From NCBI GenBank assembly GCA_016219325.1, contig JACRNH010000003.1, positions 45,123-109,122 on the forward strand: a DNA stretch of 64,000 nt, in the 5' to 3' direction. The stretch is from Candidatus Collierbacteria bacterium. GTDB taxonomy: Bacteria; Patescibacteriota; Microgenomatia; UBA1400; JACPES01. The notes beneath the pieces were generated by a model. It did no database searches and was not told the DNA's origin. It saw nothing but the letters and a program-made list of their open reading frames with translations. Within the stretch, counting starts at the first letter, position 1. Every line of letters begins with the position of its first letter. A program made the translations under genes and the position numbers. This document shows positions 5,196 through 58,800 of this stretch, piece by piece.

Positions 5196-5236
5196 ATTTC
5201 AATTTACTATTTATGATACCATTTTTGTTAGGAAAA

Positions 5237-7816: not shown

Positions 7817-7822
7817 ATCAAT

Positions 7823-12554: not shown

Positions 12555-12559
12555 CCTAG

Positions 12560-12650
12560 TGATTTATGAATTAAGATTTATGATTTATGAATAATAACGG
12601 TCTGATTCTTATATATATAGAATTCATAATTCGTAAATCTTAAATCATTG
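12560..12650. repeat. Imperfect hairpin (GATTTATGAAT-family tandem units in inverted orientation) spanning the gatCA-gatB junction
   Basis: Left arm TGATTTATGAATTAAGATTTATGATTTATGAAT and right arm GAATTCATAATTCGTAAATCTTAAATCA are near reverse complements. Confidence 0.7.
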
Positions 12651-12656
12651 CTTAAA

Positions 12657-14024: not shown

Positions 14025-14117
14025 AGTATGATTTATGATTTACGAATAATATTAATTTAGTTTTCATAGATTTTCTGATTCATAATTCATAAATCGTAAT
14101 TCTTAATTCATGAATCA
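14017..14117. repeat. Imperfect hairpin of the same GATTTATGAAT family spanning the gatB stop and the dnaE start
   Basis: GATTTATGAAGTATGATTTATGATTTACGAAT ... GATTCATAATTCATAAATCGTAATTC form an inverted repeat. Confidence 0.7.
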
Positions 14118-17100
14118 ATCTTTCGTTCATTTGCACGTCCATTCAGAGTACTCCCTTTTGGACGGGTTACCGAAAATTGCAAAATTAATAAAACGGGCCA
14201 AAGAGCTGAAAATGCCGGCTTTAGCGATAACCGATCACGGAGCGATGTACGGAGCGGTTAAGTTTTATAATGCCGCGTTGGAGGCAGGGATTAAACCGAT
14301 AATCGGAGTTGAAGCCTATATGGCTCAAAGAAGCCGGTTTGATAAAGAAGTCGGGGTGGATAAAGAATTACGGCATCAGTTGTTGCTAGCCAAGAACGAA
14401 ACCGGCTATAAAAATTTAATGAAGTTAGTGACACAGGCTAATTTAGAAGGATATTATTACAAACCGCGGATCGACAAGGAACTATTAAAAATTTATCACG
14501 AAGGAGTTATCGCAACCTCAAGTTGTTTACAAGGGGAAATCCCGAGGCTTATCGTAAATAACCGTTTGGATGAGGCTAAATCTTTGCTCAAATGGTATCT
14601 TGAGATATTCGGTGAAGATTATTATTTGGAACTCCAAAAGCATATTAATATTCCGGAACTGGAAATGGTTAATGCTCAGTTAATTAAAATGTCCCGGGAG
14701 TTCGGGGTACCGCTGGTAGCCACCAATGACGTTCACTATATCAATGCCGATGACGCCGAGGCCCAAGACGCGTTATTGGCGGTAGGGACCAAGAAATTAT
14801 TGTCCGATAAAGACAGATTAACGATGATTTCTTCGCCTGATTTTTACTTAAAGACGAATGAAGAAATGGGCAAGTTATTCTCCGATATTCCTGAAGCCCT
14901 GGAAAATACGCTTAAAATTGCCGGTAAATGCCAATTATCTTTACAAATCGGTAAATGGATTTTACCTAAATATCCGTTAAATGAAGGTGAAACTCCGGAA
15001 ATGGGTTTAGCTAGATTGACAGAAGAAGGTCTAAAACTGCGGTTTGGGAAAATATCCGATCAAATTAAGCAAAGGGCGGATTATGAGTTAGGGATAATTT
15101 GCCGCAAAGGATTTGCGACTTATTTTTTGATCGTACAGGATTTTGTAAATTGGGCCAAAAAAGAAGGAATCAGGGTCGGCCCTGGCAGGGGCAGTGTTGC
15201 CGGATCAATTGTGGCCTATGGATTAAGAATTACTACAGTCAATCCGCTGGAGCACAATATTCCCTTCGAAAGGTTTATGAATCCGGATCGGCCAACCCCG
15301 CCTGATATTGATATGGATTTTGCCGATGACCGCCGGGATGAGGTTATCCGTTATGTCACCGAAAAATATGGAAAAGGAAAAGTTGCCCAAATTATTACTT
15401 TCGGGACGATGGAAGCCAGGCAAGCGATACGTGATATTGGCAGAGTTATGGATGTCCCTTACTCTACCTGCGATAAACTAGCCAAACTAATCCCTTTAAA
15501 AGTTGGATTGAGGGAGGCCATAAATTCCAGTTTAGAGATGCAAGAAATGGGACGGGAGCCGCAAATTACTAAATTATTCGGGTTGGTGGAAAAGGTGGAA
15601 GGAGTTACCCGACACGCCTCAACTCATGCCGCCGGAGTGGTTATTGCCGATAAAGACATTACAGAATACACTCCGGTTCAAAAAGAAACCGGCAGCGACC
15701 GGATAATGACTCAATATGACATGTATAGTCTGGACCTCAATGTTTCGGATAAAGCCATTGGTTTATTGAAAATGGATTTCTTGGGATTGCGGAATTTAAC
15801 AATTTTAGGAAAAGCGGTTGAGTTCGTAAAAAAATACGAAAATGTTGAAGTTGATTTATCAGAACTGCCGTTGGATGATTCGCAAATTTATGAATTAATA
15901 AGCAGCGGAGAAACTACCGGAATATTTCAATTAGAAAGCCAGGGGATGAGACGGTTGGCCCGGAATTTAAAACCGAATAAATTCAGCGATATTACCGCCA
16001 TGGTGGCTTTATTCCGGCCGGGGCCGATGGAGCTGATCGACGATTTTATTGCCGGGAAACTCCATCCCGATAAAATTCAATATTTACATCCAGCTTTAAA
16101 ACCGATTTTAGCTCCAACTTACGGAGTGGCGGTATACCAGGAACAATGCATGCAAATCGCCAATAAAGTGGCCGGATATTCTATGGCTGAGGCCGATAAT
16201 TTGCGGCGGGCGATTGGAAAGAAAAAACATTCAATCATGGAGATTGAGAAAAAGAAATTTATAGCCGGTGTCGTAAAAAATAGTTATACAAAACCAATTG
16301 CTGAAAAAATCTGGGGATTTATCGAGAAATTCGTCGGATATGGATTTAATATTCCACATTCGGTCAGTTACGCCATGATTGCCTATCAGACAGCTTATAT
16401 GAAAATTAAATTTCCGGTTGAATATATGACGGCTATGCTGACGGCTGAAAGCCGGGCAATTTCCGGACCGGCCCGGGATTTTAAGGTATCTCAGGGAGTT
16501 GACGAATGCCGGAGGTTGGGGATTATGATTTTACCGCCGGACATTAATAAATCATTAGAGGATTTTTCCATAGAGGATTTTTCAGAAAGCCTTAAATCAA
16601 AAGCTGTCAGGTTTGGAATATCTGCTGTAAAAAACGTCGGAACGGCGGCGATCAGTTCAATTTTAAGCGTCAGACAAACAGGTGAATTTACTTCGTTATT
16701 TGATTTTTTGGGCAGAGTTGATTCTCAGAAAGTAAATAAGAAAGTAATTGAAAGTTTAATAAAAGTCGGGGCGATGGACTCGTTCGGCAGGCGGTCTTCT
16801 TTGCTTGCGGTTTTAGACGATTTAAGGTTGCAAACAGCCGCAAAGCAAAAATTGGTTGATTCAGGGCAGGGAAGTTTATTTGAGGATTTTGGAACCGGAG
16901 CGAAAGATGATAACCAGGTAGAAATACCGGATTTGCCGGAATTTTCGGCTGAAGACATGGCAAATTTTCAGAAAGAGCTGCTGGGAATTTATTTAAGCGA
17001 TAATCCGATGGTTAAATTATTGGATCCGGTTAGAAACATGGTCTCTGCCAGAGTGATGGATTTAACTGAAGAATCAGCCGGAAAAGTGGTAGTTATGGCA

Positions 17101-20080: not shown

Positions 20081-20081
20081 A

Positions 20082-20651
20082 TTAGTTATTAGTTGTTGGT
20101 GATTGGTTATTAGTGGGGGGAATAGAAATTTGACTGCTAAGGTCAATTTTTAATTTTGAAACCGTGCCGGCGGGGAGTTCTAAAACGTAGTTAACGGAAG
20201 AGGGGGAATTGTATAAAGGCAATTTGTCGTCGGTGGCGTTAGTAGGAGGGATAGGCACATTTTTATCAATTCCCGTTATTTTATTGCCGGAAATCCAGAT
20301 GATATCCAAAGGGAACATCATATCTTTCATCCAAAAAGCGGTTTGACGGGGAGGATTAATCTCAAATAACATTCCGTCTGAACCGATTTCATTTCTGTCA
20401 GAAAGCCCCTTTTGGGCTTTTTCGGGAGTTGAGGCAATTTCAACGTTTAATTCAGTATTGCCGACTTTGATTAAGCCGAATTCTGGTTGAAAAGCTGTTT
20501 CGGTTGGAGTAGGGGAAATCGTAACAGGAAAAGCGATGGCTGCAGGAGAAGAATTTAGCGTTTGCTTTTGAATATTTTGTATGGCTTTGGTTGCAAATAA
20601 ACCAGCGATAATCAGAATTAGTGAGAATAGAACCAAGCGCGTTTTATGCAT
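20082..20651 (-). CDS. DUF192 (COG1430) domain protein with an N-terminal signal/TM
   Basis: Signal-like N-terminus plus the conserved DUF192 core (GLSDRNEIGSDGMLFEF...FWMKDMMFPLDIIWI). Confidence 0.65.
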   Translation of the reverse strand: MHKTRLVLFSLILIIAGLFATKAIQNIQKQTLNSSPAAIAFPVTISPTPTETAFQPEFGLIKVGNTELNVEIASTPEKAQKGLSDRNEIGSDGMLFEINPPRQTAFWMKDMMFPLDIIWISGNKITGIDKNVPIPPTNATDDKLPLYNSPSSVNYVLELPAGTVSKLKIDLSSQISIPPTNNQSPTTNN

Positions 20652-29450: not shown

Positions 29451-29454
29451 TTAA

Positions 29455-30838
<1,384 letters not shown>

Positions 30839-30852: not shown

Positions 30853-31260
30853 ATGTTACTCCATCTCTCTCTTGCTACTCCTCTTAAGAAAGTTTTAGAG
30901 ATTGACGAAGTTGAAATCGTTAATGCTCCGGCGGAAATGGGTGACGTTGGAATTTTGCCGAATCATGCTCCGTTTATGTCCAGACTTAAAGACGGGGTGA
31001 TAAATTACCGGATCGGGGGAAATAATTTTTATGTCGGAGTTAACGGAGCCTTTATGGATGTAGCCGAAAATCAGGTGACTATAATTTCTGAAGCCGCAAT
31101 TTTGCCGGAGGACGCTGATTTAAAAAGAGCTCAAGAAGCAAGGGATAGGGCGAAGGCTGAATTGGAAAAAAGACTGGAAGGAACAGATTTTAAGATGGTG
31201 GAAGCGGAGTTGAGAAAAGCGCTTTTAGAGATGAAATTATTGGAGCACGTTAAAAAATGA
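30853..31260 (+). CDS. atpC: F0F1 ATP synthase subunit epsilon
   Basis: Size, position and a beta-sandwich plus helical-hairpin pattern consistent with the epsilon subunit. Confidence 0.75.
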   Translation: MLLHLSLATPLKKVLEIDEVEIVNAPAEMGDVGILPNHAPFMSRLKDGVINYRIGGNNFYVGVNGAFMDVAENQVTIISEAAILPEDADLKRAQEARDRAKAELEKRLEGTDFKMVEAELRKALLEMKLLEHVKK

Positions 31261-31337
31261 GTAATGAGTAGAAAGTAATGAGTAATGAATAAAATAACAT
31301 TATTTTCTACTTTCTATTTTCTACTCATTATTTTTTT
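31259..31337. terminator. AGTAATGAG/TAGAAAGTA-family inverted-repeat hairpin followed by a T7 tract (a likely intrinsic terminator after atpC)
   Basis: GAGTAATGAGTAGAAAGTAATGAGTAATGAAT ... ATTATTTTCTACTTTCTATTTTCTACTCATTA then TTTTTTT immediately before the ruvC ATG. Confidence 0.6.
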
Positions 31338-31826
31338 ATGATTATCTTAGGCATTGACCCCGGATTTGCCAGAATGGGATGGGGAGTAATCAGCAAAAAC
31401 GGCGCAAAATTTTCACTGGTAGCTTACGGATGTCTGGAGACTTCTGCCGATGTCGGTTTGCCAGACAGGTTGGAAATGATATTTGACGGGATTCTCAAAG
31501 TAATAAAGAAGTACAAGCCGGATTTGGTCGGCATAGAAACTCTTTTTTTTAACACTAACGCCAAAACCGCGGTCAAGGTAGGGGAGGCGAGGGGAGCGAT
31601 ATTGGTGGCGCTGAAAAAAGCCGGAATTAAATCAGCGGATCTGACTCCTCTTCAAGTGAAACAAGCTGTAGCTGGTTACGGCCGGGCGGAAAAATCTCAA
31701 GTCCAAAAAATGGTTAAGACCTTGTTAAATCTAAAAGAAATCCCCCATCCTGACGACGCCGCCGACGCTTTAGCCATCGCCCTCGCTGCTGGATCAATTG
31801 TAAAGTATCAGATACTTTACAACTAA
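31338..31826 (+). CDS. ruvC: Holliday junction resolvase RuvC. Its last 8 codons are supplied by a palindromic repeat.
   Basis: N-terminal ILGIDPGFARMGWGVI with the catalytic Asp, and C-terminal DDAADALAIAL. The terminal IVKYQILYN is encoded by the 25-bp palindrome at 31798-31822. Confidence 0.85.
   Translation: MIILGIDPGFARMGWGVISKNGAKFSLVAYGCLETSADVGLPDRLEMIFDGILKVIKKYKPDLVGIETLFFNTNAKTAVKVGEARGAILVALKKAGIKSADLTPLQVKQAVAGYGRAEKSQVQKMVKTLLNLKEIPHPDDAADALAIALAAGSIVKYQILYN
31798..31822. repeat. Palindrome copy 1 (TTGTAAAGTATC A GATACTTTACAA), forming the 3' codons of ruvC
   Basis: Perfect 12-bp arms with a 1-nt spacer. Confidence 0.9.
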
Positions 31827-34742: not shown

Positions 34743-34818
34743 GTCATTCCCGCGAAAGCGGGAATCTATATAAATAATTATCTTATCTACATAGATTCCG
34801 TGTCGAGCACGGAATGAC
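34743..34818. repeat. MITE/REP-like element (GTCATTCC-hairpin-GGAATCTAT ... ATAGATTCC-hairpin-GGAATGAC), full copy after ruvB
   Basis: GTCATTCCCGCGAAAGCGGGAATCTATATAAATAATTATCTTATCTACATAGATTCCGTGTCGAGCACGGAATGAC. Confidence 0.75.
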
Positions 34819-34827
34819 AATGACAAT

Positions 34828-35783
34828 ATGAAGTTATTTATTAAGCTATTAGTCACTATTTGTATTTTAGGAGCGCTTAAGCCAGAACCAATATTTGCAG
34901 CCGCGGAAAATAAACTTGGGATTCATATTCTGGAGACGGAAGAATTAGGCGAAGTGTCCAAGCTTTTCCCGGATGGCGGCTATATAACCGTTCCGGTAAG
35001 ATTGGACCAGCTGGAGGCATCAAAGTGGCAAAAATTTTTTGACGAGTCGGATAAATTTCGGTTTATTCCGATAATTAGATTTGCGACCAGCCACAACGGA
35101 AAATATTGGGAACGGCCGACAAAACGCGATATCGTAAATTTTGCCGATTTCTTCTCCAAGCTTGATTGGCACAGGCAGGAGTTAATTGTGATCGCCTTTA
35201 ATGAACCAAATCACGCTCCGGAATGGGGCGGAAAAGTTGACCCGGATAATTACGGCCAAAGCCTGACTTTTCTGGTTAATTGGTTTGCGACAGAACCGAA
35301 AAAATATTTAGTTCTTCCGGCGGCCCTTGACGCTGCTGCTTCCAATACTGACACGACTATGAGTTCAAATTTATTTCTTGACAAGTTGCTATCTAAATTC
35401 CCCGCAACAATTAATAGCCTTTCCGGCTGGAACAGTCATGCTTATCCCAATCCCGGATTTACCGGCCGGCCGGTTGATTATCATAAAATGAGCGTTAGGT
35501 CTTATCAATTCGAACTGGAAACTATTAAGAAAAGAATTGGAAAGGACTTGTCTGTTTATATCACTGAAACAGGCTGGGATAATACCAAAAAGAATGACAG
35601 TTTGATCGCCGGATATTTTAAGTTTGCTTACGAAAATATCTGGTACCCTGACAGAAAAGTGGCGGCGGTAACCCCATTTTTATTCAACGCCCAAACGATG
35701 CCTTTTTCCGCCTTTTCTCTTCTGGATGATAACGAAAAACCGACAATGGTTTATGAGATGATACAGAAATTAGGAAAGGAATT

Positions 35784-35787
<4 letters not shown>
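34828..35787 (+). CDS. Secreted glycoside hydrolase, clan GH-A-like
   Basis: Signal peptide, then the catalytic-pair motifs typical of (beta/alpha)8 clan GH-A enzymes: NEP (AFNEPNH) and ITETGW. Confidence 0.55.
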
Positions 35788-36202
<415 letters not shown>

Positions 36203-40096: not shown

Positions 40097-41069
40097 ATTT
40101 CCTGAATAATTTAAGGTCGGTTTTAACCACTGAATTCCAACCGGGGGTTAAGTTGTGGTCGGCTCCGGGATATTGATAGAGTACGGCATCTTTCTTCAGC
40201 GACTGTAAATTGCTGATTAGATCCATAGACCATTTCCACGGGACCGCTTCGTCGCCGGTGCCCTGATGAACAATCAGCGGAGTTTCTATCCGGTCAAGAT
40301 AATTGGTCGGGGAAAACAGTTCCGGATCATAAATTGACTCAAAATCGGCAATAACTTTCCGCAGGTATTTTCCGTGGTCGTCTGAATCATCCGTATAGTA
40401 AAGAATTGAATAAGGAAAAGGTTTGGAGACCGGGGCCCAAAAAGTAGCCGCCTTAAATTTATTGGTGACAGCCAGAACGGAAAGCCCGATCTGCCCGCCA
40501 TTGGAATGCCCCCATAAAAATATATTTCCCGTATCCGCCACTTGCAGATTGGAAATTGATGCTAATAATTGGAGAACGGTTGCCGGTTTGATCAGGCGGG
40601 ACTCAATTTCGTTTTCCGGTTCCGGATCCGAACTGCCGAACCCCAAAAAATCCGGAGCTAAAGTTATAAATCCGTTGCCGGCGAAAAACTCAGCCGCTCT
40701 TTGGGTTCCGATTCCGGGCTTATAGATTTCTTTGTCGACATATCCCCGCAGCATAATTATCACCGGACATTTTTGTTTAGAAGAAGAACCGTAGCCAACC
40801 GGAATGTTGGCAGTTCCGCTGACCAAGCCTTCTTGGGTATCAAATGTAAATTGGCCGTCTGTCAGAGAGATAGCCTTGGGGGTAAAAACGGATTGTTTCA
40901 AACCGTCAAATGAATATTTAAGCAAAGGCCGTGGGATTGTGGTTGGAGCTGAGGATAAGGGGGACAGGGACAGTCCTCCGATCAGCATCCCAATGACAAA
41001 TAAACAAAACAAGAGAAAGTATTGTTTCATTTTTTTCTTAAGCATTAAGTATACAGCTTTCATTGTCAT
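40074..41069 (-). CDS. Alpha/beta-hydrolase (dienelactone hydrolase / prolyl oligopeptidase-like), membrane-anchored
   Basis: N-terminal TM, nucleophile elbow GHSNGG (GxSxG), and downstream Asp/His (GTGDEAVP...ADHNL). Confidence 0.7.
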   Translation of the reverse strand: MTMKAVYLMLKKKMKQYFLLFCLFVIGMLIGGLSLSPLSSAPTTIPRPLLKYSFDGLKQSVFTPKAISLTDGQFTFDTQEGLVSGTANIPVGYGSSSKQKCPVIIMLRGYVDKEIYKPGIGTQRAAEFFAGNGFITLAPDFLGFGSSDPEPENEIESRLIKPATVLQLLASISNLQVADTGNIFLWGHSNGGQIGLSVLAVTNKFKAATFWAPVSKPFPYSILYYTDDSDDHGKYLRKVIADFESIYDPELFSPTNYLDRIETPLIVHQGTGDEAVPWKWSMDLISNLQSLKKDAVLYQYPGADHNLTPGWNSVVKTDLKLFRKFTSPSGL

Positions 41070-41123
41070 TCCTGCGAAAGCAGGAATCTATTTAAATAGA
41101 TTCCGGATCAAGTCCGGAATGAC
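41065..41123. repeat. MITE/REP-like element copy (GTCATTCCTGCGAAAGCAGGAATCTATTTAAATAGATTCCGGATCAAGTCCGGAATGAC)
   Basis: Same termini and centre as the 34743 copy, with compensatory substitutions in both internal stems. Confidence 0.8.
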
Positions 41124-41169
41124 AAAATCGAGATTGAACTTTGGAATCTAATAAGGTATTCTAAATACA

Positions 41170-50399: not shown

Positions 50400-52169
50400 A
50401 TGAAATCTGAAATATCCATTAAAGTCGGCGGGCCGGCCGGGGCGGGGGTTAAATCAGTCGGGCAGATATTGGCTAAAACTTTACAAAGATCTGGTTTTCA
50501 GGTATTTGAGTATCCGGAATATCCGAGTTTAATCCGCGGCGGGCATAATACTGAATTGGTGCAGGCTTCACTCGGAGAAAAATATTCCCTCACAAAACCG
50601 GTGGATTTACTGATCGCTCTTGACGATAAAACCCTGAAATTAGATTTGCCGGAAGTTGTTTCCGGCGGAATGGTAATTTTCGATTCCAAAATTGAATTTA
50701 AGCCAAGTCCCTCCAAAATTATCTATTTATCTATTCCGCTGTCTGATATCGCTCAAAAATTAGGAAATCCGTTGATGGCCAATGTAGTGGCGGTTGGCGC
50801 GGGATTGAAAGTCATGGGATTAAGTACTTTAATGACATCCAAATTGCTGACTGATCAGTTTTTTAAAAAAGGCCCTGATGTTGTCGCGGCAAATATTAAA
50901 GCCCTCGAAGCCGGTTGGAACTTTGTTAAAGAAAAAGGCTTCAAACCTATTTTGGATTCTGTGGATGTGAAGCCTTCAAATAATTTAATGATGACTGGAA
51001 ACGAAGCATTATCTTTAGGAGCAATCTCTGCCGGATTGGGTCTGTACGCCGCGTATCCGATGACTCCGTCAACCCCGATTCTGCATTATTTATCTGCTCA
51101 TCAGCAGGAATTTGGGTACGTTGTCCGGCAGGCGGAAGACGAAATATCCGCCGTCAATATGATAATAGGCGCGATGCACATGGGCGTGAGGGCGATGTGC
51201 GGAACTTCCGGCGGGGGATTTGCTTTAATGAACGAATCTTTGGCTTTAGCGGGGATGACGGAAACGCCGTTGGTAGTTGTCCTTGTTCAACGTCCGGGTC
51301 CGGCGACCGGCTTGCCAACCTGGACTGAACAGGGAGAACTGCAATACGCGATTCATGCCGCTCATGGGGAATTTTTAAAATTTGTTTTAGCCCCCGGGGA
51401 TAACAGGGAAATATTCCAAATGGCTTTTGAAGCTTTTAATTTAGCGGAAAGATATCAGACGCCGGCGATTATTATGCTGGATAAATTTCTATCGGAATCT
51501 TCCATGACCTGCGGAAACTTATTTCCCGACAAATTTACCATTGACAGAGGTAAAATTTCTGATCCGCTTAAATTAAAAAGGACACAAAATTATCAGCGTT
51601 ATCAGTTAACGGACGACGGTATTTCCGAAAGAAGTTTGCCGGGAATGGAAGGTGGAGTATTTTGCGCTAACTCCGACGAGCATGAGTACCATGGACTGGT
51701 TGACGAATCTTCTTCAATGAGAATTTGGCAAGTTGATAAGAGATTAAAGAAAATGGATGCGGCAGCAAAAATGATGCCGGGACCTAAATTTATTGGACCA
51801 AAGAACGCTAAAATTACCATTGTGGCTTGGGGATCGGGAAAATTGGCAGGGATAGAAACGATGGAGATGATAAACAATGAGCAGAAAACAAAGAACAATG
51901 AACAAAGAGTCAAAAACAGAGTAAACGTTTTACACTTTAGCTACCTCTGGCCGATGAATGTCAAGGCGGTAAGCGAAGCTCTGAAAAATTGCGCTCCTTC
52001 AACGTTATTGATTGAGCAAAATGCAACCGGACAATTTCAGGCATTATTAAAAGAGCAAATTGGTTGGGAACCAACGGCCCATTTAAGGAAGTACGATGGC
52101 AGGCCTTTTTACGCGGAAGAAATTATTGGAAAGATTGATAAATTAGTTAATGGATTAATGGATTCATGA
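50400..52169 (+). CDS. 2-oxoacid:ferredoxin oxidoreductase, fused gamma-alpha subunit
   Basis: N-terminal gamma domain (IKVGGPAGAGVKSVGQIL) and alpha domains I-II. There is an in-frame repeat insert at 51874-51930 (NEQKTKNNEQRVKNRV). Confidence 0.8.
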   Translation: MKSEISIKVGGPAGAGVKSVGQILAKTLQRSGFQVFEYPEYPSLIRGGHNTELVQASLGEKYSLTKPVDLLIALDDKTLKLDLPEVVSGGMVIFDSKIEFKPSPSKIIYLSIPLSDIAQKLGNPLMANVVAVGAGLKVMGLSTLMTSKLLTDQFFKKGPDVVAANIKALEAGWNFVKEKGFKPILDSVDVKPSNNLMMTGNEALSLGAISAGLGLYAAYPMTPSTPILHYLSAHQQEFGYVVRQAEDEISAVNMIIGAMHMGVRAMCGTSGGGFALMNESLALAGMTETPLVVVLVQRPGPATGLPTWTEQGELQYAIHAAHGEFLKFVLAPGDNREIFQMAFEAFNLAERYQTPAIIMLDKFLSESSMTCGNLFPDKFTIDRGKISDPLKLKRTQNYQRYQLTDDGISERSLPGMEGGVFCANSDEHEYHGLVDESSSMRIWQVDKRLKKMDAAAKMMPGPKFIGPKNAKITIVAWGSGKLAGIETMEMINNEQKTKNNEQRVKNRVNVLHFSYLWPMNVKAVSEALKNCAPSTLLIEQNATGQFQALLKEQIGWEPTAHLRKYDGRPFYAEEIIGKIDKLVNGLMDS

Positions 52170-52194
52170 ATTCATTAACGCATTAACGCATTAT
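52149..52194. repeat. Imperfect inverted repeat of TAATGGAT/TAACGCAT units spanning the oxidoreductase alpha stop and beta start
   Basis: TAATGGATTAATGGATTCATGAA | TTCATTAACGCATTAACGCATTA. Confidence 0.6.
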
Positions 52195-53041
52195 GCCATC
52201 TTTAAATTCATTTAATACTTCCATCTTTCCCACCTGGTGTCCGGGGTGCGGGGATTTTGGAATTTGGGGAGCGTTAAAACAAGCCCTGGAATCATTAAAA
52301 ATAAATCCGGATCAAGCGGCATTTTTTTTCGGAGTCGGTTGTTCTGGAAACATTTCCAGTTTTATCAGAGGTTATGGTTTTCATTCACTTCACGGCCGGA
52401 GTATTGCCAATGCCGCCGGGGCTAAACTGGCTAATTATAAACTTCCTGTTATCGTAATCGCCGGTGACGGTGATATGTTGGGAGAAGGCTTAAGCCATTT
52501 TATTCACGCTGCCCGGGCCAATCATGACATTACAATAATTTTACATAATAATGGGGTATTTGGATTAACAACCGGCCAATCCTCGCCTACTGCCGAAATC
52601 GGATTTAAATCAAAACCGATGCCTTGGGAAACTACGGATGAACCGATAAACCCTTGCGCTCTGGCAATTATGCAGCAGGCCGGATTTGTATCACGGGGCT
52701 TTGCCGGGGATCAGGAAGGCTTATCCAATTTGATCAATCAGGCGATCAATCATTCGGGCTTTTCATTGGTTGATGTTCTTCAGCCCTGTGTTACATTTAA
52801 TCCGGATAAATCATACATTTGGTACAGGCAGAGAATAAAGTCTGTTGAGTCTGTTACAAGCGATGTTTTGACCGGGATTAAAAATTCATTATGGATTGAC
52901 GAGCGAATATCAACCGGAATTATTTATCAAAACTCAAGGCCCGCGTTCCATTCTAACTATCCACAATTGGTTAAAGATAATCTATTGGATACGACCGGGA
53001 AAAAGAGAGATATAAGTAAATTGCTGAATGGATTTAAATAG
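52193..53041 (+). CDS. 2-oxoacid:ferredoxin oxidoreductase beta subunit (TPP-binding)
   Basis: N-terminal Cys cluster (CPGCGDFG) and a TPP-binding GDG-(X)n-N motif (GDGDMLGEG...LHNNGVFGLTTGQ). Confidence 0.8.
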   Translation: MPSLNSFNTSIFPTWCPGCGDFGIWGALKQALESLKINPDQAAFFFGVGCSGNISSFIRGYGFHSLHGRSIANAAGAKLANYKLPVIVIAGDGDMLGEGLSHFIHAARANHDITIILHNNGVFGLTTGQSSPTAEIGFKSKPMPWETTDEPINPCALAIMQQAGFVSRGFAGDQEGLSNLINQAINHSGFSLVDVLQPCVTFNPDKSYIWYRQRIKSVESVTSDVLTGIKNSLWIDERISTGIIYQNSRPAFHSNYPQLVKDNLLDTTGKKRDISKLLNGFK

Positions 53042-53064
53042 ATTCCCGCTTTCGCGGGAATGAC
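53038..53064. repeat. MITE/REP-like half element (ATAGATTCCCGCTTTCGCGGGAATGAC) after the oxidoreductase beta gene
   Basis: Matches the right half of the 34743 element, with the stem in the complementary orientation. Confidence 0.7.
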
Positions 53065-53066
53065 AG

Positions 53067-53776: not shown

Positions 53777-56005
53777 ATGTTTAAACTACATTCACCATAT
53801 CAACCGACGGGGACACAACCGCAGGCAATTGCCAAACTTTCTGAATTGATTTCCGGAGGAAACCGGCATCAAACCCTGCTCGGGGTGACCGGTTCCGGCA
53901 AAACATTTGTGACGGCAAATGTTATCGCTAAACTTAATAAACCGACTTTGGTTATCGCCCACAATAAAACTTTAGCCGCTCAATTGTATCAGGAGTATAG
54001 GGATTTTTTCCCGGAAAACGCGGTTTCCTATTTTGTCAGCTATTACGACTATTATCAGCCGGAGGCCTATATTCCCCAGACCGACACTTATATCGAAAAG
54101 GAAACAGATATAAATGAAATGATTGATAAATTGAGGTTAAAAGCCACCGCCAATCTGGTTTCCCGCCGAGATGTGATAGTTGTTGCTTCCGTTTCTTGCA
54201 TTTATAACTTGGGAGAACCGCAGGAATATTTAAAGAGAGTTTTGAAATTGAGTCTGGGCCAGAAAATCACTTTGAGAGAGCTATCCGAAAAACTAGTTGA
54301 TTTAATGTACGTAAGATCGCAGATGGAATTATCAAGGTCAAACTTTAGAATCAGAGGAGACTGTTTGGATATCTGGCCGGCATACGAGGATTCGGTATTG
54401 AGAATTGAGATTGTGTCAGACAAAATAAAATCGATTTGTTGGCTCGACCCTATTTCTCTATTTCCTGATCCAAAACTAATAACTAATAACCAACAACCAA
54501 CAACTGTTGCTATTTACCCCGCCAAACACTACATTGCCGATTCTAAAGATATGCTGCCGGTATTTGCCCGGATTAGAAATGACCTGCGTTTAAGGGCAAA
54601 ACAATTAGAGGCAGGCGGCCGTGATCTGGAGGCAAAAAGATTGGTTCAAAAAGTGGAATATGATTTAGCGATGATTCAGGAATTGGGATACGTCAACGGG
54701 ATTGAAAATTATTCCCGTTACTTTGACCACCGTAATCCCGGCGATCCGCCATTTACTTTATTGGACTATTTTAAACAGTGCGATCCGAATTTTTTAACGG
54801 TTATTGACGAATCCCACATCACTCTTCCGCAGATAAAAGGAATGTTTAAAGGCGACCAGTCACGGAAACAAACATTGATTGATTTTGGTTTTAGATTGCC
54901 GGCTGCAATGGATAACCGGCCATTGCAATTTGATGAATTTTTGGGAAGAGTTAATCAGACGATTTATACGTCGGCAACGCCGGGAGATTGGGAGTTGGCA
55001 AAAAGCAATGAGCAGAAAACAAAGAGCAATGAGCAAAGAACAAATAGCAACAGAGTTGTGGAATTGTTGGTTAGACCGACGGGATTGATTGACCCGGAAA
55101 TTGAGGTTAGAAACGCCCAAAATCAGGTTCCGGATTTGGTGATGGAAATTTTAAAGCGCAAAGCCAAGAATGAGCGGGTTCTGGTGACGACTTTGACAAA
55201 AAAAACCGCTGAAGCCCTGGCTGAATATTTATCGGATGAAAATAAATTAAAAACTGTTATCGGTTCTCGGTCATCGGATTTCGGTTACCAGTCTTCCGGT
55301 TATCAGTTTGCCGGTCTTAAGACCGATAGACTGAAAACAGATAAACCTGAGACTGAAAACAGAAAACTGAAAACCGATAACAAATCTATATCTGATTTGC
55401 CCAAAGTGGCTTATCTCCACTCCGATATCAAAACCCTCGACCGTCAGGATACTTTGGATAAGTTGAGAAGGGGAGAAGTGGACGTGATTGTCGGGATCAA
55501 CCTATTGCGGGAAGGTTTGGATCTACCGGAAGTATCACTGGTTGCGATATTAGACGCCGATCAGGAAGGATTTTTAAGAAGCAAGACGAGCTTAATCCAA
55601 ACTATGGGGAGAGCCGCTCGTCATATTGACGGAAAAGTTATTCTTTATGCCTATAAAATCACCGATTCAATGAGCGAAGCGATTGATGAATCTGAAAGAA
55701 GACGGAAGGTTCAGATTGAATATAACTTGAAGCATAATATTTTCCCAAAGGGGATAAATAAGCCGGTGAGGGAGAAGTTAGTTGATAGAAGTCAGGAATT
55801 GGTGGCTGAAATTGATTTGCCGAAAGGAATCTCCAATAGATACGGGGTTAAAAAATTGGATGATTTAGATTTGAATTCTTTGTCTCCGCAGGATAAACAG
55901 TCAATGATCAAACATTTAAGAAAACAAATGCTGTCTGCCGCCGATAAACTAAACTTCGAAAAGGCGGCTGAAATTAGAGATAAAATCACAGAAATGAAAA
56001 GTTAA
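53777..56005 (+). CDS. uvrB: Excinuclease ABC subunit B with two in-frame repeat inserts
   Basis: Walker A (GVTGSGKTFV), helicase motifs and a C-terminal UvrB/UvrC interaction motif (EKAAEIRDKI). The inserts are at 55003-55060 and 55255-55385. Confidence 0.9.
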   Translation: MFKLHSPYQPTGTQPQAIAKLSELISGGNRHQTLLGVTGSGKTFVTANVIAKLNKPTLVIAHNKTLAAQLYQEYRDFFPENAVSYFVSYYDYYQPEAYIPQTDTYIEKETDINEMIDKLRLKATANLVSRRDVIVVASVSCIYNLGEPQEYLKRVLKLSLGQKITLRELSEKLVDLMYVRSQMELSRSNFRIRGDCLDIWPAYEDSVLRIEIVSDKIKSICWLDPISLFPDPKLITNNQQPTTVAIYPAKHYIADSKDMLPVFARIRNDLRLRAKQLEAGGRDLEAKRLVQKVEYDLAMIQELGYVNGIENYSRYFDHRNPGDPPFTLLDYFKQCDPNFLTVIDESHITLPQIKGMFKGDQSRKQTLIDFGFRLPAAMDNRPLQFDEFLGRVNQTIYTSATPGDWELAKSNEQKTKSNEQRTNSNRVVELLVRPTGLIDPEIEVRNAQNQVPDLVMEILKRKAKNERVLVTTLTKKTAEALAEYLSDENKLKTVIGSRSSDFGYQSSGYQFAGLKTDRLKTDKPETENRKLKTDNKSISDLPKVAYLHSDIKTLDRQDTLDKLRRGEVDVIVGINLLREGLDLPEVSLVAILDADQEGFLRSKTSLIQTMGRAARHIDGKVILYAYKITDSMSEAIDESERRRKVQIEYNLKHNIFPKGINKPVREKLVDRSQELVAEIDLPKGISNRYGVKKLDDLDLNSLSPQDKQSMIKHLRKQMLSAADKLNFEKAAEIRDKITEMKS

Positions 56006-56109: not shown

Positions 56110-58800
56110 ATGGAAAACTATATTGAGGTTATTGGGGCCAAACAACATAATCTTAAGAATATCAGTGTTAAAATTCCCAAGAATAAACTGACGGTGATTA
56201 CGGGTGTATCGGGGAGCGGGAAGTCATCACTGGCGTTTGATACCATTTTTGCCGAAGGTCAAAGGCGGTATGTTGAGTCTTTATCTTCATATGCCAGGCA
56301 ATTTTTAGGGGTAATGAACAAACCGGACGTGGATAAGATTATCGGCTTGTCTCCGGCGATTGCCATTAACCAAAAAGCGGTTTCCAGCAATCCCAGAAGC
56401 ACTGTCGGAACTGTGACAGAAATCTATGATTATTTAAGAGTGTTATATTCCCGCGCCGGCCATCCTCATTGCGAAAAATGCGGCCGGGAAGTTAAACGCC
56501 AGTCCGTTGATCAAATTTCCGATTCAATTTTGGATCAGGCTAAATTATCGGCAGTTGGCCAAAAACCTTGCCTAATCGAAATATTTTCACCAATTATTGT
56601 TGATAAAAAGGGTGAATTTACCCAACTGTTTGAATCGTTGCGCCGGGATGGTTTTAAAGATGTTACCGTTGACGGCCAGAAGTTCAATCTTAATCATAAT
56701 TTTGTTTTAATCAAAACCAACCGCCACACCATAGAATTATCCGTTGATAAAATTTCAGTCACTAAAAAAGATTTTAAAAATCCTGACGGGCTTAAACTTA
56801 TTTCATCAAGGCTCTCTGAAACTGTTGAAATAGCTTCAAAAAAGTCAGGCGGGACGCTGCTGATCCAATTTGACGGTAAAGACAAAACTCTATTTTCCCA
56901 AAGCTTCGCCTGCCCAGTTTGCAATATCTCCCTGCCTGACATTGAGCCGCGGAGTTTTTCGTTTAACACCCCTTACGGGGCTTGTCCCGAATGCGATGGA
57001 TTAGGGACAATTCTTTCGGCCGATCCTGAAGCAGAAGAAAAAATTCCTAATTTGTTAAACCGTTATCTGGAAACCGACAATGAGGCAGTCAGAAAACGCT
57101 TAATCCCGTTTATCATAACCTCCGTTTGCCCCAGTTGTAATGGACAAAAGCTTAACAAAATTTCCAGAAATGTTACTGTGGCCGGAAAAAATATTGCCGA
57201 GATATCAAATTTAGCTGTTAAAGACTGTTTAAGCTTTATTGAGAAGCTTAATAAATCAGATGCCTTTTCGCCTCAAGAATCAGCGGTTTCAACTCCGATT
57301 GTCCGGGAACTTTCGATCAGATTAAAATTTTTAATTGACGTTGGTCTGGAATATTTAACTTTAGGCAGGACAGCCTCTTCTCTTTCATCCGGAGAAGCTC
57401 AAAGAATCAGGCTGGCTTCGCAAATCGGGACAGGTTTAACAGGGGTTTTATATGTTTTGGACGAGCCGACGATTGGCTTGCATCAACGGGATAATTCAAA
57501 ATTAATTCAGATTTTAAAATCATTAAGAGACTTGGGAAATACAGTCTTGGTAGTTGAACATGATCAGGAAACCATAGAAAACGCGGATTGGATGATTGAA
57601 ATCGGTCCAAAGGCCGGGAAAAATGGCGGGGAAATCATCGCGGAAGGAACAGTTGAAGATATTAAAAATAATAAAAAATCGTTGACTGGGGATTATTTGG
57701 CAGGAAGGAAGAAAGTAGAAATACAAAAGGTTAAAAGGTTAGAAGGTTACAAGGCTAATAAAATAGATTTTTCAACCTGCCAACCTGCCAACCTGCCAAC
57801 CTTAGAGTCCATTAAGCTCTCCGGCGCCTCCCAGCATAATTTAAAATCAGTTGACGTTGAATTCCCAATGGGCAAATTCATTTGCGTCACAGGCGTGTCA
57901 GGATCAGGAAAATCAACTTTGGTTCATGACACCCTTTATCATGCTCTTGCCCGAAGATTAAACCGCTATCATCACACCACTCCGGGAAAATTTGAAAGTT
58001 TTTCATTGCCGAATACCGTTAGCCAGGTCAGTTTGATTGATCAAAGCCCGATTGGGCGAACGCCGAGATCTAATCCGGCTACATACAGCGGAGTATTTGA
58101 CTATATCCGCCAAATTTTCAGCCAAACAAAAGAATCTAGAATCAGAGGATGGAAATCAGGCCGTTTCAGTTTTAACATCCCGGGAGGCAGATGCGAAACC
58201 TGTGAAGGCCAAGGACAAATAAAAGTTGAAATGCAGTTTATGCCGGATGTCTATGTTATCTGTGACGACTGTAAGGGAACAAGGTTTGGGCGTGAGACAT
58301 TAGAAGTCGTTTATTCCGGTAAAAATATTGCCGAAATTTTAAATTTAACCATAAATGAGGCCTGCGAAATGTTTGCCGGCTTTCCGGCCCTAAAATCAAG
58401 GTTGTTAATGTTAAGATCCGTAGGTTTAGGTTATTTAAGCTTAGGCCAGCCGGCGACAATTTTATCCGGCGGAGAAGCCCAAAGGATGAAATTATCCCGG
58501 GAGTTGGGGAAAATCAGGTCAGCCCATACTATATATTTACTGGATGAACCAACCACCGGGCTTCATTTTGACGATTTGCAGAAACTGATCGAAGTTTTAT
58601 TGAAACTTGTAAATCAAAATAATACCGTAATTGTGGTTGAGCACAATCTGGACGTTATCAGAAACGCCGAATGGATAATTGATCTTGGGCCCGAAGGCGG
58701 GGATGAGGGAGGAGAGATCGTTGCTGTCGGAACGCCGGAGCAAATAGCAAATAATCCTAAAAGTTATACTGGAAGATATCTCAAAAAACTAATAAACTAA
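56110..58800 (+). CDS. uvrA: Excinuclease ABC subunit A with an in-frame hairpin-forming insert in the inter-module linker
   Basis: Two ABC ATPase modules (GVSGSGKSSLAFDT; GVSGSGKSTLVHDT), zinc fingers (CPVCNISL, CETCEGQG) and ABC signatures. The insert is at 57726-57812. Confidence 0.9.
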   Translation: MENYIEVIGAKQHNLKNISVKIPKNKLTVITGVSGSGKSSLAFDTIFAEGQRRYVESLSSYARQFLGVMNKPDVDKIIGLSPAIAINQKAVSSNPRSTVGTVTEIYDYLRVLYSRAGHPHCEKCGREVKRQSVDQISDSILDQAKLSAVGQKPCLIEIFSPIIVDKKGEFTQLFESLRRDGFKDVTVDGQKFNLNHNFVLIKTNRHTIELSVDKISVTKKDFKNPDGLKLISSRLSETVEIASKKSGGTLLIQFDGKDKTLFSQSFACPVCNISLPDIEPRSFSFNTPYGACPECDGLGTILSADPEAEEKIPNLLNRYLETDNEAVRKRLIPFIITSVCPSCNGQKLNKISRNVTVAGKNIAEISNLAVKDCLSFIEKLNKSDAFSPQESAVSTPIVRELSIRLKFLIDVGLEYLTLGRTASSLSSGEAQRIRLASQIGTGLTGVLYVLDEPTIGLHQRDNSKLIQILKSLRDLGNTVLVVEHDQETIENADWMIEIGPKAGKNGGEIIAEGTVEDIKNNKKSLTGDYLAGRKKVEIQKVKRLEGYKANKIDFSTCQPANLPTLESIKLSGASQHNLKSVDVEFPMGKFICVTGVSGSGKSTLVHDTLYHALARRLNRYHHTTPGKFESFSLPNTVSQVSLIDQSPIGRTPRSNPATYSGVFDYIRQIFSQTKESRIRGWKSGRFSFNIPGGRCETCEGQGQIKVEMQFMPDVYVICDDCKGTRFGRETLEVVYSGKNIAEILNLTINEACEMFAGFPALKSRLLMLRSVGLGYLSLGQPATILSGGEAQRMKLSRELGKIRSAHTIYLLDEPTTGLHFDDLQKLIEVLLKLVNQNNTVIVVEHNLDVIRNAEWIIDLGPEGGDEGGEIVAVGTPEQIANNPKSYTGRYLKKLIN

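What the first reader, a model, noticed from the sequence alone, without database searches (positions are those of the whole stretch)
57726..57812. Hairpin-forming insert in frame in the uvrA inter-module linker, built from AAGGTT(N)AAGGTT units shared with the atpG-atpD spacer repeat
The left arm AAGGTTAAAAGGTTAGAAGGTTACAAGGCT and the right arm AACCTGCCAACCTGCCAACCTGCCAACCTT are imperfect reverse complements separated by about 17 nt. Together they encode ...KVKRLEGYKANKIDFSTCQPANLPTL.... Related AAAAGGTTAAAAGG units lie between atpG and atpD (29455-29510). uvrB carries a second, ~110-nt imperfect-palindromic insert at 55255-55385 that encodes SSDFGYQSSGYQFAGLKTDRLKTDKPETENRKLKTDNKSISD.
Basis: seen in the sequence. 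Interest (0 to 1): 0.65.

Follow-up and report, generated by a model that had tools for sequence, protein, structure and literature searches.

The report
Repeat-built hairpin insert in uvrA linker
A short fold-back stretch of repeated DNA sits in frame in the floppy linker of the repair protein UvrA of a Collierbacteria (candidate phyla radiation) bacterium, and it is one of dozens of such elements in this small genome, many of them inside essential genes.

Summary
At 57725-57803 four AAGGTTNN units face four CAACCTGC units across a 17-nt spacer, in frame in uvrA (56110-58800). The segment is missing from solved UvrA structures and from relatives that are 89% identical. It maps to a linker that AlphaFold models as disordered (residues 540-564, pLDDT below 50).

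It is not an isolated oddity. The window holds 35 tandem arrays of 7-10-nt units, against about 1 in shuffled sequence, and 24 of them lie in ORFs. Seven form hairpins whose two arms are inverted arrays, including the uvrB insert at 55254-55384. Several arrays form dispersed families. In five of six related lineages the UvrA linker carries such a hairpin, each built from a different unit.

My best reading (confidence 0.58) is a DNA-level repeat element. I infer that replication or repair slippage and strand switching make and remodel it, and that it survives because it only lengthens a disordered linker.

The rivals are an RPE/MITE-like mobile element and a functional nucleic-acid element. The second gets some support from the uvrB insert, which is conserved at the nucleotide level well above synonymous sites, although no base pair shows a compensatory change.

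I rate it a new variant of known kinds (heptamer-type simple repeats, in-frame palindromic elements), in a streamlined genome.

The parts
56110..58800 (+). uvrA gene (896 aa), host of the insert. The protein belongs to Candidatus Collierbacteria.
   Evidence: ORF and translation. E = 1e-295 to solved UvrA structures. A 100%-identical protein is named UvrA of Candidatus Collierbacteria by NCBI. Pfam finds UvrA_inter.
57725..57758 (+). Left arm: tandem array of the 8-nt unit AAAAGGTT, 4.2 copies. Encodes QKVKRLEGYKAN.
   Evidence: TRF and the repeat finder family D2. A homologous 8-mer array is also present in the short alleles L001/L002.
57759..57772 (+). Spacer (loop) between the arms. Encodes part of NKIDFS.
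   Evidence: Sequence. Unpaired in the MFE structure.
57773..57803 (+). Right arm: tandem array CAACCTGC x3.8 with 100% identical copies, the imperfect reverse complement of the left arm. Encodes STCQPANLPTL.
   Evidence: TRF, the repeat finder D1 and I4. The orthologue L003 has less uniform units that pair better (TCAACCTT/TCAACCTG), MFE -24.1 against -20.0. Absent from L001/L002.
55254..55384 (+). uvrB hairpin insert: inverted arrays of 7-nt units (TCGGTTN-type / NAACYGA-type), in frame in helicase domain 3. The variable segment between conserved anchors is 55238-55393.
   Evidence: Fold -52.1 kcal/mol, z = -7.2. Missing from all solved UvrB structures, where query residues 488-542 are unaligned. 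pLDDT below 50 for residues 500-538. A collinear orthologue in L206 is 77% identical at the nucleotide level.
54998..55055 (+). uvrB variable site 2: 7/21-nt periodic array encoding KSNEQKTKSNEQRTNSN.
   Evidence: TRF. Absent from L002/L003. 94% identical over 34 nt to the array at 51872-51918 in the pyruvate:ferredoxin oxidoreductase gene.
54474..54505 (+). uvrB variable site 1: AACTAAC heptamer array, same family as 387-416 and 20081-20114.
   Evidence: TRF, blastn-short. Relatives carry other arrays at the same site.
29462..29496 (+). AAAAGGTT/AAAAGGCT/AAAAAGGT array at the atpG-atpD junction. This is the only other AAGGYT-unit array in the window.
   Evidence: TRF and the shared 17-mer. 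It occupies the place of the spacer plus the first ~30 codons of atpD, as seen by comparison with L208 and L209.

Best explanation
The segment is a DNA-level repeat element, not a protein feature. It consists of two inverted tandem arrays of an 8-nt unit around a short spacer, so that either single strand, or the mRNA, can fold back on itself.

It belongs to a dense population of short-unit (7-10 nt) tandem arrays and 'array hairpins' in this Collierbacteria genome. These lie in intergenic spacers and, in frame, in variable loops and linkers of housekeeping proteins.

The most likely history has three steps:
1. Slipped-strand synthesis during replication or repair expanded a local or imported 8-nt seed into an array. 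This step is inferred.
2. A strand-switch (fold-back) copy made the inverted arm, or the short alleles lost that arm. This step is also inferred, and the direction is unresolved.
3. Slippage or conversion within the arrays keeps remodelling them. This is partly shown: the window's right arm has become perfectly uniform without any change in length.

The element persists in uvrA because its length is a multiple of three, it has no stop codon, and it only lengthens an already disordered linker between the two ATPase halves. It therefore costs little. These last points are shown.
For: Census
- 35 arrays of period 6-12 in the window, against about 1 in shuffles.
- 5.5 arrays per 10 kb, against 1.0 per 10 kb in 945 kb of loci from other bacteria.
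- The commonest periods are 7 and 8 nt, not multiples of three. 24 of 35 arrays lie inside ORFs, among them GatB, GatCA, ClpB-like, CTP synthase, RuvB, PPDK, PolX and UvrB.
- Seven array hairpins fold with z = -3.1 to -8.0.

Permissive site
- The insert falls in the inter-module linker. Residues 540-564 have pLDDT below 50 and no secondary structure.
- The baseline linker is 16-21 aa. Longer linkers appear in at least 6 separate lineages.
- Relatives 89% identical in protein lack the right arm.

No protein-level constraint
- Window against L003: 9 codons differ and 8 of the changes are non-synonymous. Amino-acid identity is 0.71 in the insert against 0.91 in the rest of the protein.

Turnover at one site
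- The UvrA linker carries hairpins built from different units in the window, L004, L206 and L207 (MFE -20 to -54 kcal/mol, z = -2.7 to -6.7) and none in L001.
- The same pattern holds at uvrB site 3, at the atpG-atpD spacer and at the POR alpha/beta spacer.

Slippage-type remodelling
- The right arm is 100% periodic in the window but mixed in L003, at the same length.
- Arrays at uvrB site 2 contain the local seed CAGAAAACAA.

No structural selection
- uvrB hairpin against L206: of 48 pairs, 34 are unchanged, 4 kept by a one-sided change, 0 compensatory and 10 broken.

No known family or signal
- No Rfam family matches. There is no promoter-like or terminator-like site at the insert.
Against: - Several array families are 90-100% identical over 22-35 nt at non-orthologous places, both within the window and between genomes whose synonymous sites are about 40% diverged. 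Purely local slippage does not explain that. It points to copying between sites.
- The uvrB insert is far better conserved at third codon positions (0.77) than its flanks (0.23-0.58). A neutral passenger as old as the gene should not be.
- Hairpins recur at the same linker in five of six lineages. This could reflect selection for a hairpin rather than a shortage of permissive sites.
- The slippage and strand-switch steps are inferred from sequence patterns. None was observed.
- The polarity (gain or loss of the right arm) is unresolved.
Confidence: 0.58

Rival explanations
1. The insert is a copy of a small non-autonomous mobile element (MITE- or RPE-like). It landed in frame in uvrA, and the different hairpins seen at the same linker in other lineages are independent insertions or replacements by other families.
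For: - Dispersed families exist. F4 (AATGAGT/AGAAAGT) is present at 6120, 31250-31340, 36146 and 44712-44805. F6 is present at 12555-12650 and 14005-14115.
- F6 is 100% identical over 29 nt to L004 4826-4854, which lies in a different spacer. F1 is 97% identical over 30 nt to an array inside the POR gene of L207.
- A second, clearly dispersed family (GTCATT...AATGAC composite hairpins) occupies intergenic sites in the window. The same family sits in frame in uvrC (61314-61405), at uvrB site 3 in L002/L004 and in the atp spacer of L209.
- In-frame palindromic insertions of this kind are documented for Rickettsia RPEs (PMC10969869).
Against: - The uvrA hairpin has no second full copy in the window or in about 170 kb from relatives. 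There is only a 17-nt match to the atp array.
- No target-site duplication is visible against the short allele.
- The left arm is homologous to an array already present in the short alleles, so the element did not arrive as one piece relative to them.
- No transposase was identified. Only 14 of the 56 ORFs were scanned against Pfam.
- Almost nothing was found in viral contigs.
Confidence: 0.2
2. The element is a functional nucleic-acid signal kept by selection. Possibilities are an mRNA hairpin that pauses translation between the two homologous ATPase halves, an RNA processing or stability site, or an array of binding sites for a sequence-specific protein, as was proposed for TAACTGA heptamer repeats.
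For: - A hairpin recurs at the same linker in five of six lineages despite unrelated unit sequences.
- The uvrB insert shows nucleotide-level conservation that is independent of codon position: 0.85/0.71/0.75 at positions 1/2/3, against 0.68/0.82/0.39 in the rest of the gene. The peak is sharply confined to the insert.
- Array families are conserved between genomes.
- AAGGTT-octamer arrays occur in at least 120 metagenomic contigs of 28-72% GC. Of 76 with enough flanking sequence, 14 have an inverted partner within 160 nt, against 3.2 expected from permuted flanks.
- A regulatory role was proposed for heptamer repeats in Beggiatoaceae (PMC4679880).
Against: - There are no compensatory changes in the uvrB hairpin and 10 of 48 pairs are broken.
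- Homogenisation of the window's uvrA right arm lowered its complementarity (-20.0 against -24.1 in L003).
- Many close relatives lack any hairpin in the linker (seven 882-883-aa homologues).
- In uvrA the insert's raised third-position identity (0.82) is not exceptional, since other windows of the gene reach 0.96.
- No Rfam match, no terminator.
Confidence: 0.13
3. The encoded peptide is an adaptive extension of the UvrA linker, giving extra reach or flexibility between the two ATPase modules.
For: The linker length varies widely in this clade, from 16 to 50 aa, and the insert is retained in two lineages (window and L003).
Against: - The peptide evolves faster than the rest of the protein and mostly by non-synonymous change.
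- The peptides at this site are unrelated between lineages.
- The 8-nt periodicity and the inverted symmetry are properties of the DNA and have no meaning at the protein level.
- The peptide is predicted to be disordered.
Confidence: 0.04

Closest known systems
Long simple sequence repeats with 5-11-nt units in prokaryotes, including cyanobacterial STRR heptamers (Mrazek et al. 2007, as summarised in PMC4679880; Rehm et al. 2015, PMC4692102)
   Same: Both are tandem head-to-tail copies of 7-10-nt units, 3-8 copies long, and many are dispersed in one genome. Heptamers are the commonest class. Polymerase slippage has been proposed as the source. Orthologous sites often differ between close relatives.
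   Different: Here a large share lies in frame inside conserved housekeeping genes: 24 of 35 arrays, although the density per kb is still five times higher in non-coding DNA. Many arrays are paired with an inverted array to form a hairpin. The host is a small candidate-phyla-radiation genome. In Xanthomonas only 7-11% of such repeats are intragenic.
TAACTGA heptamer direct repeats of Beggiatoaceae, Cyanobacteria and Bacteroidetes (MacGregor 2015, PMC4679880)
   Same: The right arm of the uvrB insert is made of NAACYGA units (AGACTGA, AAACAGA, AAACTGA, AAACCGA). Relatives carry SVISS.../...ITDN peptides at uvrB site 2, the LSVISYQ-type translation described in that paper. The repeats are scattered across phyla with no known means of transfer.
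   Different: The Beggiatoa repeats are mostly direct, intergenic and just upstream of start codons, and only one indirect repeat was reported. Here the arrays are inverted pairs inside ORFs, and the uvrA unit (AAGGTTNN) is unrelated.
Rickettsia palindromic elements (RPE)
   Same: Both are hairpin-forming repeats inserted in frame in unrelated essential genes, translated, and tolerated at sites compatible with the protein fold (PMC10969869).
   Different: RPEs are about 150 bp and belong to ten families, each with a conserved consensus and a conserved encoded peptide. The uvrA element is about 80 nt, is built of 8-nt tandem units, has no second full copy in the sequence held, and encodes no conserved peptide. 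The GTCATT...AATGAC elements of the same genome (in uvrC, and in uvrB of relatives) resemble RPEs more closely.
REP / REPIN elements (Bertels and Rainey 2011, PMC3116915)
   Same: A REPIN is two inverted short repeats that form a hairpin. REPINs are dispersed and evolve within the genome.
   Different: REPINs are extragenic and are mobilised by RAYT transposases, and their arms are single palindromic units, not tandem arrays. No RAYT was looked for or found here.
'Compensatory slippage' in eukaryotic rRNA expansion segments, and the small dispersed repeats embedded in tandem heptamers of Nostoc (Hancock and Dover 1990; Elhai et al. 2008).
   Same: These are hairpins whose two arms are complementary simple-sequence motifs that expand and turn over by slippage. 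The Nostoc case is very small repeats nested in heptamer arrays.
   Different: Those cases concern non-coding RNA or intergenic DNA. Here the hairpin is translated as part of a repair enzyme.

Membership tests
Long simple sequence repeat (5-11-nt unit tandem array) | Head-to-tail copies of a 5-11-nt unit, longer than chance allows in that genome | tested here: met
   TRF finds 8-nt units at 4.2 and 3.8 copies. The window has 35 such arrays against 0-2 per dinucleotide shuffle.
Long simple sequence repeat (5-11-nt unit tandem array) | Many such arrays dispersed through the genome | tested here: met
   5.5 arrays per 10 kb in the window and 1.5-4.6 in related Collierbacteria loci, against 1.0 in 945 kb from other bacteria.
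Rickettsia palindromic element (RPE)-type in-frame palindromic element | In-frame insertion in an ORF that stays intact, at a structurally tolerant site | tested here: met
   The ORF is intact. The segment is extra relative to solved structures. The linker has pLDDT below 50.
Rickettsia palindromic element (RPE)-type in-frame palindromic element | Multiple dispersed copies sharing a family consensus and a conserved encoded peptide | tested here: not met
   Only a 17-nt match to one other array in 64 kb. No copy in about 170 kb from relatives apart from the orthologue. The peptides differ between lineages. Only a small part of the genome was available.
MITE | Terminal inverted repeats | tested here: inconclusive
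   The whole element is an imperfect inverted repeat, but it has no distinct conserved termini.
MITE | Target-site duplication flanking the element when compared with an empty site | tested here: not met
   Comparison with the short allele in L001/L002 shows no duplicated flank. The left arm is shared with the 'empty' allele.
MITE | A related autonomous IS or transposase in the genome | not tested
   Only 14 of the 56 ORFs in the window were scanned against Pfam, and none is a transposase. The whole genome was not available.
REP / REPIN | Extragenic location and association with a RAYT transposase | tested here: not met
   The element is intragenic. A RAYT was not searched for genome-wide.
Phase-variable contingency locus | A repeat tract in an ORF whose unit length is not a multiple of three | tested here: met
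   The unit is 8 nt, with 3.8 perfect copies in the right arm.
Phase-variable contingency locus | Copy-number differences between strains that switch the reading frame on and off | tested here: not met
   The window and L003 have equal arm lengths. All 30 aligned homologues are full length. Population read data were not available.
Intrinsic terminator / known structured RNA | G+C-rich stem followed by a U run, or a match to an Rfam family | tested here: not met
   No terminator-like site at 57700-57820. Rfam gathering thresholds return only five tRNAs in the window.

The most novel reading that the evidence does not exclude
Collierbacteria and their relatives, and perhaps many other bacteria, may have an active process that writes, copies and maintains short-unit tandem arrays and fold-back array hairpins. 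The targets would include loops and linkers of core genes.

Two forms of this reading are open. One is a reiterative, strand-switching repair or gap-filling synthesis; a family-X DNA polymerase gene lies in the window at 5168-7036. The other is a trans-acting factor that recognises particular 7-8-nt units.

Under this reading the arrays are not decaying junk. They are kept at the nucleotide level and exchanged between loci and genomes, and the hairpins in uvrA, uvrB and uvrC are its footprints or its cis-acting sites.
Probability: 0.17. Interest if true: 0.8.

Novelty: new variant of a known kind. Interest (0 to 1): 0.52.

Why it matters
Candidate-phyla-radiation genomes are usually described as small and streamlined. 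This one carries about one short-unit repeat array every 1.8 kb, two thirds of them translated inside housekeeping enzymes. All three subunits of the UvrABC excinuclease have in-frame hairpin inserts.

If the pattern holds for whole genomes, it bears on three things:
- how new linker and loop sequence arises in proteins;
- what the replication and repair machinery of these organisms can and cannot suppress;
- how to annotate and align their proteins, because the insert positions mark permissive sites.

The nucleotide-level conservation of some inserts, and the sharing of array families between genomes at non-orthologous sites, also reopen an old question. Nobody has explained how heptamer-type repeat families spread, or whether they have a function.

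Tried and rejected
- **Genome-contig scan with UvrA.** It gave no Collierbacteria loci. I used those 80 loci only as a background for array density.
- **Rfam at gathering thresholds.** Only tRNAs.
- **Promoter and terminator scan, 52-62 kb.** Nothing at the insert.
- **Covariation test on the uvrB hairpin.** No compensatory pairs.
- **First control for inverted partners in metagenomic hits.** The decoy was the complement without reversal. It was invalid because it overlaps the real motif in periodic sequence, so I replaced it with permuted flanks.
- **Concerted evolution of the POR and uvrB site-2 arrays.** This is strong for the pair within the window (longest common substring 20 nt; 94% over 34 nt). 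It is weaker than it first looked for L004 (13 nt), and the orthologous arrays are also somewhat alike. I treat it as suggestive only.
- **Nucleotide-level constraint on the uvrA insert.** Third-position identity of 0.82 is above the gene mean of 0.61, but other windows of the gene reach 0.96. That is not conclusive for uvrA. It is conclusive only for uvrB against L206.
- **Viral contig scans.** The F6 20-mer gave no hits. The AAGGTT hairpin pattern gave one.
- **Literature searches.** I found no paper in the library describing these elements in Patescibacteria.
- **Rejected readings.** An assembly artefact is ruled out because the same or related inserts appear in independent NCBI, JGI, ENA and Logan assemblies. 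An intein or intron is unlikely because the insert is in frame, free of stop codons and only 80 nt long. A DGR variable region and a TIGR/CRISPR-like array do not fit because the unit size is wrong.
Full report
**What is at the site**

The window comes from a Candidatus Collierbacteria genome (Patescibacteria, candidate phyla radiation). Its UvrA and UvrB are 100% identical to proteins that NCBI names in this way. uvrA occupies 56110-58800 (896 aa), uvrB 53777-56005 and uvrC about 60510-61871. lexA lies divergently upstream of uvrB.

At 57725-57758 TRF finds 4.2 copies of AAAAGGTT. At 57773-57802 it finds 3.8 perfect copies of CAACCTGC. The repeat finder pairs the two as an inverted repeat (arms of 14 nt, 86% complementary). 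The arms are separated by 17 nt and read ...QKVKRLEGYKANKIDFSTCQPANLPTLES... in frame.

As RNA the segment folds to -20.2 kcal/mol. That is only moderately unusual: z = -1.8 with dinucleotide shuffles and -2.7 to -3.5 with mononucleotide shuffles. The tandem periodicity is what lies far beyond chance, together with the adjacency of the only AACCT-unit array in 64 kb to one of only two AAGGYT-unit arrays. The uvrB segment at 55254-55384 folds to -52 kcal/mol, z = -7.2.

**It is an insert in a disordered linker**

Against solved UvrA structures (3pih, 9gxk) the query has about 19 extra residues. They fall exactly between the end of ATPase module I (...YLSGRKKI.V.K.RR) and the first strand of module II.

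In an alignment of 30 homologues the baseline linker is 16-21 aa across Microgenomates. Linkers of 28-50 aa appear in at least six separate lineages. An AlphaFold2 model (mean pLDDT 80) gives pLDDT below 50 and no secondary structure for residues 540-564, flanked by confident domains.

The same holds for uvrB. Query residues 488-542 are unaligned to every solved UvrB, and residues 500-538 and 415-423 are modelled as disordered.

**Comparison with close relatives, at the DNA level**

- L003 (UvrA 91% identical) has the same hairpin. Its right arm is TCAACCTT/TCAACCTG and pairs better (-24.1 kcal/mol). The window's right arm has become perfectly periodic at the same length, and that lowered its complementarity.
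- L001 and L002 (89% identical, 882 aa) keep a homologous left 8-mer array (CAACAGGC CAAAAGGC TAGAAGGT CAACAGGT) but lack the spacer and right arm, a difference of 42 nt. Six more homologues of 882-883 aa share that short form.
- L004, L206 and L207 carry other hairpins at the same place, built of TCRGA-type, CAGATAA/GTAGACAA-type and GATAGAA-type units. Their MFEs are -39 to -54 kcal/mol and z = -5.0 to -6.7.

Between the window and L003, 9 codons of the insert differ and 8 of the changes are non-synonymous. Amino-acid identity is 0.71 in the insert against 0.91 elsewhere. The peptide is therefore not conserved. What recurs is the DNA architecture.

**The element is one of a genome-wide class**

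TRF finds 35 arrays of period 6-12 with at least 2.8 copies in the window, against 0-2 in each of 20 dinucleotide shuffles. The periods are mostly 7 nt (18 arrays), then 8, 9 and 10. The density is 5.5 per 10 kb, against 1.0 per 10 kb in 945 kb of loci from other bacteria.

Twenty-four arrays lie inside ORFs, although the density per kb is five times higher in non-coding DNA. The host genes are ordinary housekeeping genes: GatB (four arrays), GatC-GatA, a ClpB-like ATPase, CTP synthase, RuvB, pyruvate phosphate dikinase, a family-X DNA polymerase, pyruvate:ferredoxin oxidoreductase and UvrB. In GatB the arrays coincide with variable loops of the solved structure, some adding residues and some not.

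Seven loci are array hairpins: 12555-12650, 14005-14115, 31250-31340, 44712-44805, 52128-52196, 55254-55384 and 57724-57806 (z = -3.1 to -8.0).

**Families and copying**

The arrays are not all unique. blastn-short groups them into families within the window:
- GTTGTTA at 387, 20081 and 54474;
- GGGATATTA at 432 and 13692;
- AAAGTACAAG at 636, 11288 and 58833;
- AATGAGT/AGAAAGT at 6120, 31256, 36146 and 44718;
- TGATTTA at 12560 and 14007;
- 51872 against 54998, 94% identical over 34 nt.

Variant units often occur in the same order in different copies, which argues for copying rather than independent slippage. Some families recur in other genomes at non-orthologous sites. Window 12564-12592 is 100% identical over 29 nt to the POR spacer of L004. 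Window 387-416 is 97% identical over 30 nt to an array inside the POR gene of L207.

For the uvrA unit the only partner is the atpG-atpD array, through a shared 17-mer with 0.00 expected by shuffling. No second copy of the full hairpin exists in the window or in about 170 kb from relatives. A scan of metagenomes shows that AAGGTTNN arrays occur in at least 120 contigs of 28-72% GC. Of 76 with enough flank, 14 have an inverted partner within 160 nt, against 3.2 with permuted flanks. Array hairpins of this unit are therefore widespread and not specific to this clade.

**A second class of element**

The window also holds composite hairpins with GTCATT...AATGAC ends. They are intergenic at about 7739-7818, 34743-34830, 41064-41123 and 53030-53066, and in frame in uvrC at 61314-61405, where they encode SDVIARSPGQIGTTRQSIKDRFPRSLSFARNDKG.

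The same family occupies uvrB site 3 in L002 and L004 and the atpG-atpD spacer in L209. The copy at window 41060-41125 is 95% identical over 62 nt to L209 and 87% over 61 nt to L002. These behave like a true dispersed, RPE-like family.

Different elements thus replace one another at the same permissive sites: uvrB site 3, the uvrA linker, the atp spacer and the POR spacer.

**How it most likely works**

- *Shown.* The element is in frame, free of stop codons, in a disordered linker, dispensable in close relatives, evolving without protein-level constraint, and part of a dense population of arrays.
- *Inferred.* Slipped-strand synthesis makes and remodels the arrays. A strand-switch copy makes the inverted arm, or the short alleles lost it. 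An NJ tree places the window nearer to short-linker proteins than to P0002, which would favour loss, but the tree is unresolved. Selection then acts only as a filter, leaving arrays at permissive sites, and that filter explains why they recur at the same sites.

I give this reading 0.58.

**What does not fit**

The uvrB insert is shared, collinear and gapless, with L206, whose UvrB is only 64% identical in protein. Inside the insert nucleotide identity is 0.77 and is flat across codon positions (0.85/0.71/0.75). The rest of the gene shows 0.68/0.82/0.39, and the flanking 26-codon windows have third-position identity of 0.23-0.58. Yet none of the 48 base pairs shows a compensatory change and 10 are broken.

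Primary sequence is thus conserved without any structural covariation. Combined with the cross-genome identity of some families, this leaves room for either a mobile or laterally spreading element (0.20) or a functional or actively maintained nucleic-acid element (0.13). For uvrA itself the raised third-position identity (0.82) is not exceptional within the gene.

**Comparison with what is known**

Heptamer-rich simple repeats, and slippage as their proposed source, are known from Mrazek et al. 2007, as summarised in PMC4679880, and from Rehm et al. 2015. TAACTGA repeats and their LSVISYQ translation are known. In-frame palindromic RPEs are known.

Three things appear not to have been described; my searches of the library found nothing for Patescibacteria:
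- hairpins built from inverted short-unit arrays and translated inside core enzymes;
- the density of these arrays in a streamlined genome;
- their replacement by different units at the same linker in sister lineages.

I therefore rate it a new variant of known kinds, with interest 0.52.

Noticed in passing
window 61314-61405 (in uvrC, 60510-61871); also 7739-7818, 34743-34830, 41064-41123 and about 53030-53066: A second repeat class: composite hairpins of about 60-95 nt with GTCATT...AATGAC ends. Four copies are intergenic. One is in frame in uvrC, between the UVR motif and the endonuclease domain, and encodes SDVIARSPGQIGTTRQSIKDRFPRSLSFARNDKG. The same family sits in uvrB site 3 of L002 and L004 and in the atpG-atpD spacer of L209. 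UvrA, UvrB and UvrC therefore all carry in-frame hairpin inserts.
   Followed up: partly
window 29451-29540: Orthologues 91-95% identical in protein (L208, L209) have a full atpD N-terminus. The window's atpD lacks its first ~30 codons (MNMKAKSINSELQGVIVRISGPVVDVKFEN) and has no canonical start before GTG at 29540. The AAAAGGTT array, with an in-frame TAA at 29483-29485, sits in their place. This could be a repair scar, a pseudogene, a non-canonical start or an assembly fault.
   Followed up: partly
window 12555-12650, 12648-14024 and 14005-14115: gatB carries four in-frame arrays: AATTCAG x4.6 and AAAGGAA x4.7, both 100% perfect, plus AAAGATC and GGGATATTA. The gene is flanked on both sides by copies of the same array-hairpin family (TGATTTA/TGAATTA units).
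   Followed up: partly
window 31250-31340 and 44712-44805 (also 6120-6153 and 36146-36199): Two intergenic hairpins of the AATGAGT/AGAAAGT family share their first 22 nt exactly and are followed by T-rich runs, so they look like AT-rich terminators. Single-arm copies of the same family lie in the PolX gene and at the end of ORF 35784-36161.
   Followed up: partly
window 51872-51918 (POR gene) and 54998-55055 (uvrB); L004 4571-4601 and 7932-7955: Within each genome, the array in the pyruvate:ferredoxin oxidoreductase gene and the array at uvrB site 2 resemble each other: NNEQKTKNNEQR / KSNEQKTKSNEQR in the window, and NKKQETG in both genes of L004. They resemble each other more than they resemble their orthologues. 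This hints at copying between unlinked arrays.
   Followed up: partly
window 56110-58800 (UvrA residues about 308-313): UvrA of this clade lacks the roughly 88-residue insertion (DNA-binding) domain, Pfam PF17755. Query residues 308-313 span chain residues 312-401 of 9gxk. PF17755 is absent from the Collierbacteria-like homologues but present in more distant ones.
   Followed up: partly
window 5168-7036: A family-X (pol beta-like) DNA polymerase gene, itself carrying a TAATGAG array in the thumb region. It is a candidate for slippage-prone gap filling. This is speculation only.
   Followed up: no
L086-L165 (metagenome hits): AAGGTTNN octamer arrays occur in at least 120 metagenomic contigs of 28-72% GC. 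About 18% have an inverted AACCTT array within 160 nt (for example L086, L098, L135, L142, L144, L147, L151). Array hairpins of this unit are therefore widespread outside Patescibacteria.
   Followed up: partly
L008 (labelled Ruminococcus bromii isolate bin), L007 (Dialister MAG), L009: These uvrA-bearing contigs (48% identity to the query) are extremely rich in heptamer arrays, with 12 arrays in 8.9 kb in L008 (units such as GTAGTCG, AGTGATC, ACCGACT). The taxonomic labels may be binning errors.
   Followed up: no
window 57-923: An O-antigen-ligase-like (Wzy_C) membrane protein ORF contains five different arrays: AATATACA, GTTGTTA, AAATTAGGG, AAAGTACAAG and GGGATAGG. The G-rich ones resemble the GGGGATT-type heptamers reported in Nostoc.
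   Followed up: no
window 58833-58874; L001 3065-3110, L002 6517-6562, L003 5975-6006, L207 about 15512-15553: The decamer array (TTTTTGTACC / CTTTCTTGTA) in the N-terminal hydrophobic segment of the transglutaminase-like protein is kept at the orthologous position in four relatives. Some coding arrays are therefore old.
   Followed up: partly
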